From the NCBI RefSeq assembly GCF_009914755.1, contig NC_060934.1: a DNA stretch of 64,000 bases; one strand, 5' to 3'. Source of the DNA: the human T2T-CHM13v2.0 reference genome, Homo sapiens. Within the stretch, counting starts at the first letter, position 1. The number at the start of each line of letters is the position of its first letter. This document shows positions 7,468 to 16,343 of the stretch, one piece after another. Below the pieces are notes generated by a model, which saw only the letters and a list, made by a program, of their open reading frames with translations, had not been told where the DNA came from and searched no databases. A program made the translations under genes and the position numbers.

Positions 7468-7812
7468 ATGGAAGTAAAGGGGCCATCAGGTAGAAGCTTT
7501 TGCTGTGAGTCAGAAGGACAATTTAAAAGTTGCCTAAAGAGGCACACGCCATCTCTGCTGCTGCCTTCCAGTTGGAAGGGAAACTCAGGTTCTTGCCTAA
7601 TGGCCGAAGCCCTTCACAGAATGTCCCCCACCCCTAACAGCTGCCCACTGCCCCTCCCCCTCTGCAGAATGTCTGGGGTCCTATGTTCCAGGAACCTGTT
7701 TACTTTCAAATTTTCCTGTTTCAGTTGGACTCAGGAGCATCTGGTGAGCCAGGTCACTCTCTGGGTCTTACCCTTGGCTTTTCTCATTGTGGAAACTGCC
7801 AGACAGCGGTAG
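7468..7812 (+). other. Overlapping uORF (114 aa): NUTM2A/B-type N-terminus MEVKGPSGRS... frameshifted after ...FTFKFS
   Basis: The first 83 aa match the remembered NUTM2A N-terminus. The continuation LFQLDSG is in another frame (1-nt loss at ~7716). ATG context AGAATGG is strong; stop TAG at 7810-7812. Confidence 0.85.
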
Positions 7813-10800: not shown

Positions 10801-13800
10801 TCACTGTCCCGTGAGTCCAGCCAATCCTTACTTTCAATAATTTTCACAACAATGTTTACAGAAGACCCAGGTCAGAGAGGGTTCCTGGTGTGACGTGAGC
10901 TACGGTTTGGGTTTAGGTCTTTGAGTACACGCCCCAGTGCCTCCCCTTTAACCCAGTATTGATGGCCAGGAGCACCTCACATGGGGCCGGGGGGAGGAGC
11001 TGCAGGACCCAGCAGGAACCTGACACATGCCCGCAGTTCCGCTGAGGTCCAGTTAGCACAGCGGTGGTGGAGCCTGCACAGGGGGATGGTCTTGGGCCCT
11101 GCACTGGGGCCGATGCCGAGCAGGTATTTGCATCTTCACCCTCAATCCCTCCTAGAAAAAGGGACAATGATGCTTCATTCAGAGGATGGTGAAGAGATAA
11201 CTTGAGCTCACATATGACATGCATAGCACAGTGCCTGGCACATGCTATGACACATTACATGACAGCAGTTATGATTACTGTCCCCATTACTATCATTATC
11301 AAGACTAGGCCATCTAGGAGAGCACTCCCCAAAGCCACGGGCTCCAGTGATAGCTCTGAGTGCACCATGAGTCCAGCAGCCCAGGGCCATGGACTGTGGT
11401 GACTGTGAGGCAGCAACGTCAGCATCTGGGAGAGTTTGTGGTTTCATTCCCAGTCCCTGCCTCTCTCCACCCTGCGGTGCCTCTGTGACCCTGTGTTTCC
11501 CGCTGATGAGCAAACGGGAGCTTGAGCACATCCACCGTGCAACACACTGGCCGTTCCCCTAGGGAAGTCCCCTGCCTGGGGTGTAGGTGGAAGGTGGCCC
11601 CATTTTCATCCCCCAAAATCTCGCTGTTCCCGCACCCTGGAACTGGTTGCATTCCTCCTTGGAGCGGAGTCCCGGTGCACTGGGGACCCTGATTCTTGGG
11701 GTGGAGCTGCCCCAGGCTCACAGGCCTTTGCCATGGCTCCTGTGGGAATGTGGGATCTGGACCTGCTGCTTGCAGTGGCGTGGACACCGCTCTGCTTTGG
11801 TTCTGGACGTGTGCTCCTGCTCCTCATGCTCCAGGGCCCTGAGGCTACGTCCCCAGGGGCTGCCTTGCTCCAGAGTCCCCAGGAAGCCGGTTAAATGCTC
11901 AGTCTTGGGGCCCTGGAACCTGCACTTTAACCCTCACCCCCAGGTCATTCTGTGTGCACGCTGTCTCAGTCAGCTCAGGCTCTGCCGTAACGAATGCCGT
12001 AGACTGGGTGCTTTATCAAGACACATTCATGTCTCCCAGTTCCAGAGGCCAGAAGTCCCAGATCAAGGTGACAGCAGATTGGGTGTCTGGTCAGGGCCCT
12101 CCTCCTGGCTGGAGAGAGCTGTCTCTGGCTATGTCTCCTCGTGGCTGAGAGCAAGAGCCCTGGCGTCTCCTTCTGCCCTTATCAGGGCTTGGATTCCATG
12201 ACTGGGACCCACGCTCATGACCTGCTTTAACCCTGATTGCCTCCAAATACTGACACACTGGTGCTGAGGACTTCAGCACAGGAATGTTGGAGACACACAT
12301 GTTCCACCCATAGTACTGAGTCCACTTCTCAACACTGAGGACTCGAGGGGCAGTCGGAGAGGCCACTTGGTAGCTTGTGTTGATGTTTGATCTTGGGGGT
12401 GTGTCCTGGGGCCTGAGGAGCCCACATGGGGGAGAACAGGACAGGGACAGATGGCAGGACAGGTGTGGGGAGGACAGGGGCCAGGTGTTGGGACCAGGTG
12501 GGCTTGGGATGAAGGGTGGGCTTATAGACTGAGACTGACTGCACTGGTTTACAGCCCAGTTCTCCGATCCCTGGCCCGGCGGAAGCCCACCATGACCCTG
12601 GAGGAGGGACTGTGGCGGGCCATGCGGGAATGGCAGCACACGAGCAACTTTGACCGGATGATCTTCTACGAGATGGCGGAAAAGTGAGTCTGGGGTCCTG
12701 GGAGCGGGGCCCGCGTGGCAGGGTGAGAGTGAATGACAGAGGCCCGGTGGCCATGGTGGCTTCTCAACGTGGAGTATGAGGAGGGTGTGGAGAAACCCAG
12801 GACACTCTGGGCCCCTGGCTCCCTCAGGAAGCTGCTCCTGCCACCTAGAGTGTTCTGGGGTCTCTGTCCTGGCCTATTGGGAAGCACCCCCTGCCTGGCC
12901 TGGGGCCATCCCTGCCTTGACACTGGAGGTCATGGCAGGAGCAGCCAGCATCACAGACCAAAGTGGGTCACCTCCAGCTGTGGGGATGGGGAGAAGGGGC
13001 GCTAGTGACTATGGACAAGAGTAGGGTGCAGGCTCCTCACAGCAGTGGCCAGAAGTCGGTTTTCTCCCATCCCAGCCTGGCCAGGGAGTTGGGTTGGGGA
13101 GACCTGCACCTGGGACACCATGGGACCCATCTCTGGCCTGACTGCCTTTGCTCCTGGGCAGTCCCCTCCATGAAGGCAGACAGATAGACAGCAGCCTCAG
13201 GGGAAAGGGGCCCTGTCCTCTGAGCTCAGCTTTTGCTTCCTCCTGACCAGGGGTCTCCCAGGCCTCGTGCCCCTGGGTTATCTTTCAGGGGCCCACAGTC
13301 CTAGCCTCAGGACTCCTGCATCTGGGCATCATCCCTGATGCCTTCTGCCATAAATCCCACCCCTGGCCAGCTGAAACCTGGAGGAGGGGTCCCCCGAGAC
13401 CCTCCTGGACCTCGTGGCCCTGAGTTGAGTCAGGAAGCCCCGTTGATGCCATGGGCTCTGCAGGGGCCGGGTGAGGGAGGGTGAGCCCAGAACTCTGGGA
13501 GCAGCTTTCTCCTGGGACTGGGGGATGGGACACAGTGAGGGCCTGGACAGCCCACCCGAGGCACTCCCTCCCATCCCTGCCCTCGGCCGCTGCCTGGTCC
13601 TGGGGGGAGGGGGCCTGGACCCTCTCAGCACAGCCTGGGCCTCCTTCACCGCCAGGTTCCTGGAGTTTGAGGCTGAGGAGGAGATGCAGATTCAGAAATC
13701 GCAATGGATGAAGGGGCCCCAGTGCCTGCCTCCTCCAGCCACACCGAGGCTTGAACCTCGAGGACCCCCGGCCCCTGAGGTGGTCAAGCAGCCAGGTATG

Positions 13801-16343
13801 GCTTCCCACATTCCCACAGGAGCCATGGCAAAGGCCAAAGGGGCCAAGGGAGGCCACTGTCCCCACACCCCATGCTTCCCTTCGAGAGGGGGATTTGCTC
13901 CCTCCAACAGGACAGTTTCCAGGAGCATATGTTCGGTATTGACCTGGTCAAGTTTCCTAGCTACTCTCTCCCCTCGCCTGTCCAAAACTCCACATATGCT
14001 CTGCCCAGGAAGCAGGGATGAGCGGGGAGAGTACACGGCATATTGGTGGCTCCAAACTTCCTCCCAAGCGATGCTGTCTCAGATGTGCCCCTCCTGCCTC
14101 CTCCGGGGGCGCTGCGGTTCAGGTGGTCCTGACCCAGCTGGGACCCACTTCACATCCCCAAGCCCTGCCCTCCCCTGTGTGGTGCCAGCAGGAGGAGCGG
14201 CCCTCACCACGCCCGTCCTCCTCCCTCTCTGCCTCAGTGTACCTTCCCAGCAAGGCCGGCCCCAAGGCCCCGACTGCCTGCCTGCCACCACCCAGGCCCC
14301 AGAGGCCAGTGACCAAGGCCCGCCGGCCACCACCCCGGCCCCACCGGCGAGCAGAGACCAAGGCCCGCCTGCCACCACCCAGGCCCCAGAGACCAGCAGA
14401 GACCAAGGTCCCTGAGGAGATCCCCCCAGAAGTGGTGCAGGAGTATGTGGACATCATGGAGGAGCTGCTGGGGCCTTCCCTCGGGGCCACGGGGGAGCCC
14501 GAGAAACAACGGGAAGAGAGCGAAGTGAAGCAGCCACAGGAAGAGGACTGGACGCCCCCAGACCCGGGCCTCCTGAGCTACACTGACAAGCTGTGTTCCC
14601 AGAAAGACTTCGTCACCAAGGTGGGCTGGCCTGGAGTGCTGGGGTCTGCTGGATTCCAGGGGGTGGCACTCCCAGGTCCTTGGAATTAAGCTCTGTTCCT
14701 TAGCTACTCAGCAGTGTGTGTATTTCCATGGATTTGAGTGTCTGTGTATGTGATTGTGTGTGTGTCTGTGTGTTGCTGTGTGTTTGTGTCTGTGGTTTGT
14801 TACTGTGTGTCTTTGTGTGTCTGTGTGGGTGTGAGTGTGGAGTGTGTACGTTACCTGTGTCTGTGTCTTTTCCTGTGTCATATGTGGGTCTGTTTGTGTG
14901 TCTGTGTGTGGTTTGTGTGTCTCTGTCTGTGTGTGTGTAGCTACCAGGTCTGTGGTCTGTGTCTGTAGCTGGTGGTCACCATGATATGAGACAGCCCCAG
15001 GAGGGTGGGGACGGGGCGCTCGCTGCTTTCTGCATCTCCTCCAGGTGTCCTTGGCTCCAGGTTACTCCCTGCCCAGGAAGCTCACGCCTTCTTCCTTCTG
15101 TTTCCAGGTGGAGGCCGTCATTCATCCCCAATTCCTGGAAGAATTGCTTTCCCCAGATCCACAGATGGATTTCTTGGCCCTAAGCCAGGAGCTGGAGCAG
15201 GAGGAAGGACTCACCCTTGCCCAGGTACCCCAGGGGCAGGAGGGACCTGGCACACAAGGCCCACCTGATTGTGTAATCCCCCCCGCTGGGGATGCTCGGC
15301 TTCTTGGGGAGCCACTCTGGAGTGGGAAGATGCAGGTTCAGAGGGAGTAGGATGGACAGGAGCCAGGGAGGGGAGTCAGCATGCAAGCTGTGGTGAGGCC
15401 CAACAGGAGGCCCGGCAGAGCCACACCCTCTCTCTTTGACATAAAGCCCAGCTGCCTCAGGCTTCCCTACCTGCCGCCTAAGTGCCCTGGTCTCCACCAC
15501 CCTGGGCCCCGCTCACACCTGGGGCAGTGCCCGTAAGTGCCCCCTTTCCTCCCGCAGCTAGTGGAGAAGCGCCTCCTACCCTTGAAGGAGAAACAGCATG
15601 CGAGGGCAGCCCCTAGTCGTGGCACAGCCCGGTTGGACTCAAGTTCTTCTAAGTTTGCAGCTGGCCAAGGAGCAGAGAGAGACGTCCCTGACCCCCAACA
15701 AGGGGTTGGCATGGAAACCTGCCCACCCCAGACGACTGCCCGGGACTCTCAGGGACGAGGCAGAGCACACACTGGCATGGCCAGGTCCAAAGACTCTGTT
15801 GTGCTTTTGGGATGTCAGGATTCCCCTGGGCTGAGGGCTGCCCGGCCAACCTCTCCTCCCCAGGACCACAGACCCACCTGCCCTGGCGTGGGTACCAAGG
15901 ATGCCTTGGATCTCCCTGGAGGGTCTCCTGTCAGGGAGTCACATGGGCTGGCTCAGGGGTCAAGTGAGGAGGAGGAACTCCCCAGCCTGGCCTTCCTCTT
16001 GGGTTCCCAGCACAAGCTTCTGCCCTGGTGGCTACCCCAGAGCCCTGTCCCTGCCTCGGGCCTTCTCAGCCCAGAAAAGTGGGGACCCCAGGGAACTCAT
16101 CAGTTCCCATCTGCTGAGAGAAGAGGCCTCAACCTAGCACCTTCTCCTGCCAACAAGGCCAAGAAGCGACCTCTCTTTGGAAGCCTGTCCCCTGCTGAAA
16201 AGACACCCCACCCAGGGCCTGGGCTCAGGGTCTCTGGGGAGCAATCCCTGACTTGGGGGCTGGGTGGCCCCTCACAGTCTCAAAAGAGAAAGGGTGACCC
16301 CTTGGTCTCCAGGAAGGAGAAGAAGCAGCGTTGTAGCCAGTAG
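7683..16343 (+). CDS. NUTM2D: NUT family member 2 (FAM22), 7 coding exons, 806 aa
   Basis: join(7683-7848,9898-10597,12555-12683,13656-13795,14238-14620,15108-15224,15558-16343) = 2421 nt. All introns are GT-AG with compatible phases. The [11 protein letters not shown] start and 806-aa length match NUTM2D as remembered (NUTM2A is 72 aa longer). Paralogs are near-identical, so the symbol is slightly less certain than the family. Confidence 0.9.
9898..10597 (+). CDS. NUTM2D: NUTM2D exon 2 (Pro/Ala/Gly-rich region, start of the NUT domain)
   Basis: Acceptor TTTGTCTCCACAG|CA; AYPALGPG...[13 protein letters not shown]...SCFL; donor AT|GTGAGT. Confidence 0.95.
11120..11290 (+). mobile_element. MIR fragment
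   Basis: GCATAGCACAGTGCCTGGCACA core. Confidence 0.65.
11723..11755. repeat. 33-bp perfect inverted repeat, arm 1 (intron 2)
   Basis: GGCCTTTGCCATGGCTCCTGTGGGAATGTGGGA is the exact reverse complement of 13804-13836. Confidence 0.97.
11880..12335. mobile_element. MER5A-like fragment interrupted by an MLT1A-type MaLR LTR (-, ~11961-12315)
   Basis: GGAACCTGCACTTTAAC..CCCCAGGTCATTCTG (MER5A), followed by TGTCTCAGTCAGCTCAGGCT...AGAAGTCCCAGATCAAGGTG (MLT1A). Confidence 0.7.
12555..12683 (+). CDS. NUTM2D: NUTM2D exon 3
   Basis: TTTACAG|C; [19 protein letters not shown]...FYEMAE; donor AA|GTGAGT. Confidence 0.95.
13656..13795 (+). CDS. NUTM2D: NUTM2D exon 4
   Basis: CCGCCAG|G; [14 protein letters not shown]...VVKQP; donor CAG|GTATGG. 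Confidence 0.95.
13804..13836. repeat. 33-bp perfect inverted repeat, arm 2 (starts at +9 of intron 4)
   Basis: TCCCACATTCCCACAGGAGCCATGGCAAAGGCC. Confidence 0.97.
14238..14620 (+). CDS. NUTM2D: NUTM2D exon 5
   Basis: CCTCAG|TG; YLPSKAGP...[14 protein letters not shown]...DFVTK; donor AAG|GTGGGC. Confidence 0.95.
14281..14412 (+). repeat. Coding minisatellite, 3 units of 42-45 bp (LPPPRPQRP(A/V)ETKA-like)
   Basis: Units at 14281-14322, 14323-14367 and 14368-14412. Confidence 0.9.
14713..14970 (+). repeat. Degenerate (TG)n tract in intron 5
   Basis: TGTGTG/TGTCTG reiterations. Confidence 0.9.
15108..15224 (+). CDS. NUTM2D: NUTM2D exon 6
   Basis: TTTCCAG|GTG; [15 protein letters not shown]...LTLAQ; donor CAG|GTACCC. 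Confidence 0.95.
15558..16343 (+). CDS. NUTM2D: NUTM2D exon 7 (coding part)
   Basis: CCCGCAG|CTA; LVEKRLL...KEKKQRCSQ*. Confidence 0.95.

What the first reader, a model, noticed from the sequence alone, without database searches (positions are those of the whole stretch)
11723..13836. Perfect 33-bp non-TE inverted repeat bracketing NUTM2D exons 3-4 and covering the exon-4 donor
Seen: 11723-11755 (intron 2) is the exact reverse complement of 13804-13836 (intron 4, from +9). Imperfect pairing continues (11756-11772 TCTGGACCTGCTGCTTG against 13785-13803 CAAGCAGCCAG|GTATGGCT) across the 5' splice site. There are faint traces of older complementarity on the other side. Established: long-range intronic duplexes promote exon skipping and back-splicing. 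Inference: a pre-mRNA stem of about 50 bp could mask the donor, skip exons 3+4 (269 nt, frameshifting and removing the NUT core), or yield a 269-nt circRNA. A perfect core within diverged flanks suggests selection or gene conversion. If conserved in paralogs, it would also be present in YWHAE::NUTM2 fusion pre-mRNAs.
Basis: partly seen in the sequence, partly recalled or inferred. Interest (0 to 1): 0.7.

Follow-up and report, generated by a model that had tools for sequence, protein, structure and literature searches.

The report
Inverted splice-site copy in NUTM2 intron
A 52-letter piece spanning the end of exon 4 of the human NUTM2 genes is also present, reversed, two kilobases upstream in intron 2; it likely arose as a one-off DNA copying error and has changed about as fast as the intron around it, but it is predicted to pair in the unspliced RNA and could hide that splice site, most fully in the chromosome 9 copies.

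Summary
The repeat is real, but the gene is NUTM2A. The unit is 52 nt: 11723-11772 is a reversed copy of 13785-13836 (last 11 nt of exon 4 plus 41 nt of intron 4). All 7 NUTM2 copies found carry it. The chr15 relative (NUTM1 by position, recalled) has the junction-side arm only, so the intron-2 arm is the derived copy, likely from one templated DNA-repair event shortly before the chr9 and chr10 copies split. There is no sign of selection to keep the stem: at least 8 changes in 104 nt against 8.0 expected, and no two-sided compensatory change. The perfect 33-mer is what survived in the chr10 line. Pairing is predicted to be strong (-93 kcal/mol chr10; -112 chr9, where 51 of 52 pairs hold across the donor). 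Skipping exons 3+4, skipping exon 4 or keeping intron 4 all reach the same premature stop. One oddity: 7 of the 8 changes lie at donor positions -4 to +8 (P 0.004 to 0.36, depending on how events are counted), loosening the donor in the chr10 copies that enter cancer fusions. No RNA data or mammalian orthologs could be examined.

The parts
11723..11772 (+). Arm 1: derived, inverted copy of the exon 4/intron 4 junction, in intron 2 (50 nt here, 52 nt in the chr9 copies)
   Evidence: Matches the reverse complement of the NUTM1 junction (0 of 2000 shuffles reach the score) but not the same site of NUTM1 intron 2 (P 0.13-0.36)
11723..11755 (+).
11756..11772 (+). Donor-facing part of arm 1; at least 4 edits (2 deletions, 2 transversions) shared by all five chr10 copies
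   Evidence: edit distance 4, six equally good placements; MAFFT instead places 1 indel and 7 substitutions
13785..13836 (+). Arm 2: the source sequence, last 11 nt of exon 4 plus intron 4 +1 to +41; has a forward homologue in NUTM1
   Evidence: 80% identity to NUTM1 over the first 41 intron bases against 66% for the intron overall
13793..13803 (+). Exon-4 splice donor (CAG|GTATGG in chr10 copies, CAG|GTACAG in chr9 copies), inside the predicted stem
12555..12683 (+). Exon 3 (129 nt), looped out by the predicted stem
   Evidence: Hub annotation; Pfam NUT 233-274
13656..13795 (+). Exon 4 (140 nt), looped out, its last 11 nt inside arm 2
   Evidence: Hub annotation; Pfam NUT 276-321
14238..14620 (+). 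Exon 5, where the shifted frame reaches a premature stop 322 nt before the last junction

Best explanation
Arm 1 is a reversed 52-nt copy of the exon 4/intron 4 junction that likely entered intron 2 of the ancestral NUTM2 gene in one templated DNA-repair (template-switch) event and has since changed at the ordinary intronic rate, so any RNA pairing it causes is likely a side effect and not a selected switch. Shown: direction of copying (NUTM1 has the source only), sharp ends, a net gain of 26-28 nt at the site, presence in all 7 copies, neutral-rate change. Inferred: a broken or stalled strand in intron 2 primed on the opposite strand 2 kb downstream, copied 52 nt and returned, replacing about 31 nt. 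The template was DNA or unspliced RNA, since the copy spans the exon-intron boundary. This happened not long before the chr9/chr10 duplication, since the arms then differed at 0-1 of 52 positions. Predicted: in pre-mRNA the arms can pair if intron 2 is still attached when intron 4 is transcribed. That would compete with U1 at the donor and divert some transcripts to a premature-stop form, more in the chr9 copies than here.
For: Arm 1 scores 45-50 against the reversed NUTM1 junction (0 of 2000 shuffles) and is at chance against the same site of NUTM1 intron 2; NUTM1's own site does not match its junction (P 0.81); 65 nt lie between anchors in NUTM1 against 91-93 in NUTM2. The NUTM1 site does not stand out in a duplex scan (about 7% of 922 windows are as good). 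Ends are sharp. Genome searches found the arms only in NUTM2 copies (14 of 14 and 15 of 15 candidates scored). At least 8 changes in 104 nt against 8.0 expected at 7.7%; 0 two-sided compensatory changes and 5 pair-breaking ones. Exons 3+4 are more conserved than introns (8 of 269, P 0.003), so the including form is the one maintained. A similar low-copy inverted pair (117 bp, 93%) turned up in 191 kb of held sequence. Germline templated insertions of 25 bp or more number about 100 calls per person (PMC8421209).
Against: 7 of 8 changes fall in 12 of 52 columns around the donor (P 0.004 if independent; 0.04-0.36 if merged into 6-4 events), which uniform drift does not predict well. The core has 1 change in 66 nt (P 0.04-0.06 before ascertainment). 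All 4 transitions in the arms keep a G-U pair against a 32:33 background (1 in 16 by chance, and dependent on the assumed ancestor). Near-identity of the arms at the chr9/chr10 split could also reflect a much older repeat held by selection or conversion. Only two deep lineages were available. Junction microhomology is at most 3 nt and is read across about 35-40% divergence.
Confidence: 0.66

Rival explanations
1. The copy arose by accident but was harmful: in the ancestor it masked the exon-4 donor, and selection in the chr10 line loosened the donor-facing part and kept or regained G at +5, while the chr9 copies still carry an almost complete 52-bp mask over a weaker donor.
For: All 6 chr10-line changes lie at donor positions -4 to +8. 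The donor-facing duplex falls from -37.7 to -18.7 kcal/mol and the full-context gain from -65.0 to -37.7. PCCR arms are depleted over actively used splice sites (PMC8052449 section 10).
Against: The four arm-1 edits may be one complex mutation, and the two arm-2 changes one doublet or CpG decay. 2.9% of 2796 intronic 12-nt windows hold 4 or more differences anyway. The 33-bp core (-72.8) was left intact. The chr9 copies keep open, constrained exons 3-5 despite the full stem. Predicted U1 pairing differs little (-7.7 against -7.2).
Confidence: 0.17
2. The stem is a selected long-range RNA structure that regulates NUTM2 output by unproductive splicing, kept by selection or by conversion between the arms.
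For: Strong predicted stem in all 7 copies; 1 change in 66 core bases; G-U-compatible transitions. Every predicted outcome leads to one premature stop 322 nt before the last junction. Exons looped out by stable PCCRs have lower inclusion (PMC8052449).
Against: Neutral overall rate, no two-sided compensation, 5 breaks. Absent from NUTM1. The conservation of arm 2 goes back to NUTM1, which has no partner arm, so it has another cause.
Confidence: 0.12
3. The arms are remains of a mobile element's terminal inverted repeats, or the ends of an older, longer inverted duplication.
For: Lenient BLAST extends the chr9 match to 78 columns at 83%.
Against: One arm is the gene's own exon-intron junction with a NUTM1 homologue. 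No copies outside NUTM2. The extension is not significant, and the flanks of arm 1 align forwards to NUTM1 intron 2.
Confidence: 0.05

Closest known systems
Microhomology-mediated templated insertions, MMB-TI (PMC8421209; passages and section 10 part 1 read)
   Same: A short inverted copy of a nearby template put into a site, with replacement of some bases; germline; 25 bp or longer.
   Different: Here the event is fixed and old, recognised against a paralog rather than as a variant. The template lies 2,012 nt away, microhomology cannot be read reliably, and the template is the gene's own splice donor.
Short-range template switches of great apes (PMC7954356; passages read)
   Same: A reverse-orientation template creates new self-complementarity.
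   Different: Defined within about 100 nt; this pair is 2 kb apart.
[quoted passage not shown]
   Same: Non-repeat intronic arms in one gene, under 10 kb apart, looping out exons and overlapping a splice site; far more stable than the group IV limit of -30 kcal/mol.
   Different: PCCRs are defined inside elements conserved across 100 vertebrates (median arm 13 nt). This pair is 52 nt, lineage-specific, and shows neutral-rate change and no covariation among paralogs.
Reverse-complementary intronic matches that promote circRNA (established knowledge; enrichment stated in PMC8052449)
   Same: Complementary arms bracket exons 3-4.
   Different: The downstream arm covers or abuts the donor that back-splicing needs. 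No NUTM2 circRNA appeared in the 30 of 55 listings shown.
Short paired duplications, 'doublets' (Thomas et al. 2004; recalled, nothing seen: not held)
   Same: Exact 25-100 bp pairs about a kilobase apart with unrelated flanks, made by insertion (recalled).
   Different: Recalled as mostly same-strand; this one is inverted.

Membership tests
Templated insertion (MMB-TI type) | Inserted bases match a nearby template in reverse orientation | tested here: met
   50 of 52 Watson-Crick in chr9 copies, 46 of 52 in four chr10 copies
Templated insertion (MMB-TI type) | Sequence absent from the ancestral site, present at the template site | tested here: met
   NUTM1 as outgroup; a complete decay in NUTM1 cannot be fully excluded
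Templated insertion (MMB-TI type) | Microhomology at the junctions | tested here: inconclusive
   TTG is shared at the 3' junction between arm end and NUTM1 site; none is seen at the 5' junction; outgroup too distant
Short-range template switch (four-point model) | Template within about 100 nt | tested here: not met
   2,012 nt between the 52-nt arms
PCCR | At least 10 nt, -15 kcal/mol or better, under 10 kb apart, same gene, non-repeat | tested here: met
   repeat status rests on genome search and the hub's mask list, not on a repeat library
PCCR | Both arms inside phastCons 100-vertebrate conserved elements | not testable with these tools
   No conservation track. The held supplements (5 files, 245,821 characters) have no NUTM2 or FAM22 but are too small to hold the full catalogue of 916,360 pairs
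PCCR | Conservation above flanks or compensatory substitutions (support for function) | tested here: not met
   8 of 104 against 8.0 expected; 0 two-sided changes in 7 paralogs, which form two deep lineages
circRNA-promoting flanking complementarity | Complementary arms in the introns flanking the circularised exons | tested here: met
   Arms in introns 2 and 4
circRNA-promoting flanking complementarity | Back-splice reads exon 4 to exon 3 | not testable with these tools
   No RNA-seq access
Transposon terminal inverted repeats | Dispersed copies of the arms outside the host gene family | tested here: not met
   Only NUTM2 copies and the NUTM1 junction match; these searches skip very common words

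The most novel reading that the evidence does not exclude
A DNA copying accident made a built-in antisense mask for the gene's own splice donor. It still throttles NUTM2F/G by sending transcripts to decay, and it was selectively loosened in the chr10 copies. The residual stem trims YWHAE::NUTM2 fusion output and may explain fusion junctions to exon 5 by skipping of exons 3-4 from breakpoints further upstream.
Probability: 0.17. Interest if true: 0.68.

Novelty: new member of a known kind. Interest (0 to 1): 0.33.

Why it matters
As it stands it is a clear, polarised example of a templated inverted insertion that copied a splice donor. If the stem acts on splicing, the family offers a natural experiment, with a full mask in the chr9 copies and a half mask in the chr10 copies. 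That would show how long-range splicing structures are born and eroded. It would also touch oncogenic fusions: YWHAE exon 5 to NUTM2 exon 2 fusions keep both arms (PMC4599240; PMC8557563), and stabilising the stem would be predicted to send those transcripts to a premature stop.

Tried and rejected
Older complementarity beyond the arms: not significant on either side. A second weak chr9 inverted match (40 columns, 77.5%, seen in 1 of 2 chr9 copies) lies in sequence that aligns forwards to NUTM1 intron 2 and is treated as chance. A decayed repeat in NUTM1: a shared 7-mer was tested and is at chance (P 0.81; duplex scan). A local template for the chr10 arm-1 edits: best reverse match within about 150 nt is 6 nt, best within 7 kb is 8 nt; unresolved. 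Known RNA family: two Rfam matches, both far below gathering score. The constrained energies (-97, -116) were discarded because the constraint left arm 2 wholly unpaired; one search replaces them. A genome-wide frequency of such repeats was not obtained. The baseline rests on 191,304 held bases in 30 non-random, partly paralogous sequences and gives no rate. Literature: no listing or passage described this repeat, NUTM2 exon 3-4 skipping or a NUTM2 circRNA (30 of 55 listed); most subscription papers are not searched. Supplement searches were blank but uninformative. No orthologs from other mammals and no RNA data were reachable.

Full report
Observation. The 33-nt arms at 11723-11755 and 13804-13836 are exact reverse complements, and sensitive self-alignment extends them to 52 columns through the exon-4 donor (11723-11772 against 13785-13836, 88%, E 8e-9). 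Rfam gives nothing near threshold.

Family. A genome search found seven full copies (40 of 684 candidates scored, and narrower searches scored all 14 and 15 candidates and found the same seven). Five are on chr10 (this one, NUTM2D, two at 80.6-80.7 Mb, one at 51.5 Mb with a frameshift in exon 5). Two are on chr9, about 91% identical. PMC12432481 (passages) places NUTM2B/E at 10q22.3 and NUTM2F/G at 9q22; I assign those names by position only. A chr15 locus matches exon by exon; I take it as NUTM1 (name recalled). All seven NUTM2 copies hold the repeat in the same arrangement. In the chr9 copies 50 of 52 pairs are Watson-Crick, one is G-U and one is broken. In four chr10 copies the counts are 46, 2 and 4, and in the 51.5-Mb copy 45, 3 and 4. 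The perfect 33-mer is therefore the part of a 52-nt unit that stayed unbroken in the chr10 line.

Direction and origin. NUTM1 still aligns to NUTM2A in introns at about 60%. It has a forward homologue of arm 2 but no arm 1. Between two anchors it has 65 nt where NUTM2 has 91-93. Arm 1 matches the reversed NUTM1 junction (scores 45 and 50.5, 0 of 2000 shuffles) and not the same site of NUTM1 intron 2 (P 0.13 and 0.36). That NUTM1 site does not match NUTM1's own junction (P 0.81). The ends are sharp: anchored extension outwards scores 0 in chr10 and P 0.14-0.19 in chr9, inwards 0. The outer flank aligns forwards to NUTM1 (P 0.026 and 0.005, optimistic because the anchor came from an alignment). 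So arm 1 is a derived, reversed copy of the junction that replaced about 31 nt. It spans exon and intron, so its template was not spliced mRNA. This anatomy fits a templated insertion by template switching (inference). PMC8421209 (section 10 part 1) reports 103 and 99 germline calls of 25 bp or more in two people, of which 10 and 11 were classical events. The 2-kb distance is outside the short-range class (about 100 nt; PMC7954356). In 191,304 held bases one more low-copy inverted pair appeared (L013, 117 bp, 93%, 512 nt apart). The sample is not random and that pair's repeat status is untested. The four deep arm sequences reduce to one sequence with 0-1 ambiguous position, so the copy, or its last homogenisation, was recent at the chr9/chr10 split. 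That split shows 7.7% intronic divergence, roughly the human to Old World monkey distance (recalled).

Selection. No pair changed on both sides, and five changes break pairs. For it: the core has 1 change in 66 (P 0.04 by Poisson, 0.06 against real intronic windows), but P is 0.28 once the chr10 branch is conditioned out. The first 41 bases of intron 4 are also unusually close to NUTM1 (80% against 66%; 6% of windows are as high), which has no partner arm, so arm 2 is constrained for another reason. The four transitions all keep G-U pairs (background 32:33), a weak hint that depends on the assumed ancestor. Exons 3+4 are constrained (3.0% against 7.7%, P 0.003, though 4 synonymous to 3 non-synonymous codons), so inclusion is the maintained outcome.

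The unexplained part. Seven of the eight changes lie in 12 columns, donor positions -4 to +8, and all six chr10-line changes are among them. Counted singly this is unlikely (P 0.004); counted as 6, 5 or 4 events it is 0.044, 0.13 or 0.36. Also, 2.9% of intronic 12-nt windows hold four or more differences. The effect is to halve pairing over the donor in the chr10 copies (-37.7 to -18.7 kcal/mol). They also have G at +5 like NUTM1, where the chr9 copies have A. This may be one complex mutation plus CpG decay, or selection to free the donor; primate orthologs would decide.

RNA level, all predicted. Arm duplexes are -93.4 (chr10) and -112.5 kcal/mol (chr9); the best match of arm 2 elsewhere in introns 2-3 is -55. 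The stem is in the minimum-energy fold of the 2.4-kb region in both, with gains of 37.7 and 65.0 kcal/mol over folds without arm-arm pairs, and local opening costs of 18-25 per arm. U1 pairing to the donor is about -7 to -8 (U1 motif recalled). In cells the outcome would depend on timing: the intron-2 acceptor is made 1.2 kb before arm 2, so intron 2 may leave first, and bound proteins are not modelled. Skipping 3+4, skipping 4 and keeping intron 4 all end at the same stop, 322 nt before the last junction, a decay signal by the usual rule; skipping exon 3 alone is in frame. PMC8052449 (section 10) finds lower inclusion for exons looped out by stable pairs, depletion of arms over active splice sites, and enrichment outside circRNAs. 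A circle is the least likely product here because it needs the covered donor.

Fusions. YWHAE::NUTM2 breakpoints lie in NUTM2 intron 1 (PMC4599240, passages), and exon-2 junctions are reported for YWHAE::NUTM2A and KAT6B::NUTM2B (PMC8557563; PMC13725297), so both arms are in those pre-mRNAs. I saw no passage on splicing downstream of exon 2. RNA junctions to exon 5 are reported for 3 of 4 NFATC2 fusions (PMC12432481) and one KDM2B::NUTM2B, although intron 4 is the shortest of introns 1-4 (442 nt). Reading-frame selection explains this without the stem (exons 2 and 5 start in the same phase). The passages gave no DNA breakpoints, and exon numbering may differ by transcript. PMC7450558 (one passage) lists NUTM2F as a duplicated core-duplicon gene and that passage does not mention this repeat.

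Verdict. A real, family-specific templated inverted copy of a splice junction. It works like a potential long-range splice-masking stem, but it fails the conservation test that would make it a PCCR-type regulatory element on the evidence reachable here. I found no description of it in ten literature searches, which miss most subscription papers and unheld supplementary catalogues. New member of a known kind; interest 0.33.

Noticed in passing
L006/L007 (chr9 copies), at window position 13948 in intron 4: A 53-nt stretch absent from the chr10 copies with the layout 10-mer, its reverse complement, spacer, 10-mer again (GGTATTGACC). Its reverse complement aligns to NUTM1 better than its forward strand (37.5 against 20.5), but the part beyond the palindrome is not significant alone (P 0.33). 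It looks like a second small template switch about 110 nt from arm 2, perhaps later deleted in chr10.
   Followed up: partly
window 11961-12275: Old dispersed repeat in intron 2 with many 68-81% matches genome-wide. It resembles a MaLR-type LTR fragment (label recalled). It is not in the hub's list of longest masked stretches, and homology with NUTM1 stops just before it.
   Followed up: no
window 7715-7716: RefSeq skips 2 nt in exon 1. Read straight from 7468, this assembly's frame stops after 115 codons, so the long N-terminal form is frameshifted here. The next in-frame start (MASNG) at the end of exon 1 is downstream of the shift.
   Followed up: partly
L013:1137-1253 and 1766-1882 (G000:C5:95458298-95461433): Another low-copy inverted pair, 117 bp at 93%, 512 nt apart, with abrupt ends.
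   Followed up: partly
window 11760-11775: The end of arm 1 plus the next three bases reads as a possible cryptic acceptor (CTGCTGCTTGCAG|T); NUTM1 has no AG at the matching point. Not scored.
   Followed up: no
window 14265-14396: A 42-45 nt coding repeat in exon 5 (LPPPRPQRP units) whose length differs among paralogs; one chr9 copy lacks 45 nt.
   Followed up: no
L005 / L056 (chr10:51.5 Mb copy): One-base loss in exon 5 shifts the frame and gives stops; its arm 2 has a private C-to-T change that keeps a G-U pair.
   Followed up: partly
L051:3877-3975: NUTM1 holds a short direct duplication of the intron 4/exon 5 boundary, giving two similar acceptor-like sites in tandem.
   Followed up: no
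window 13796-14237: Intron 4 of NUTM2A has no stop in the exon-4 reading frame across its 442 nt.
   Followed up: no
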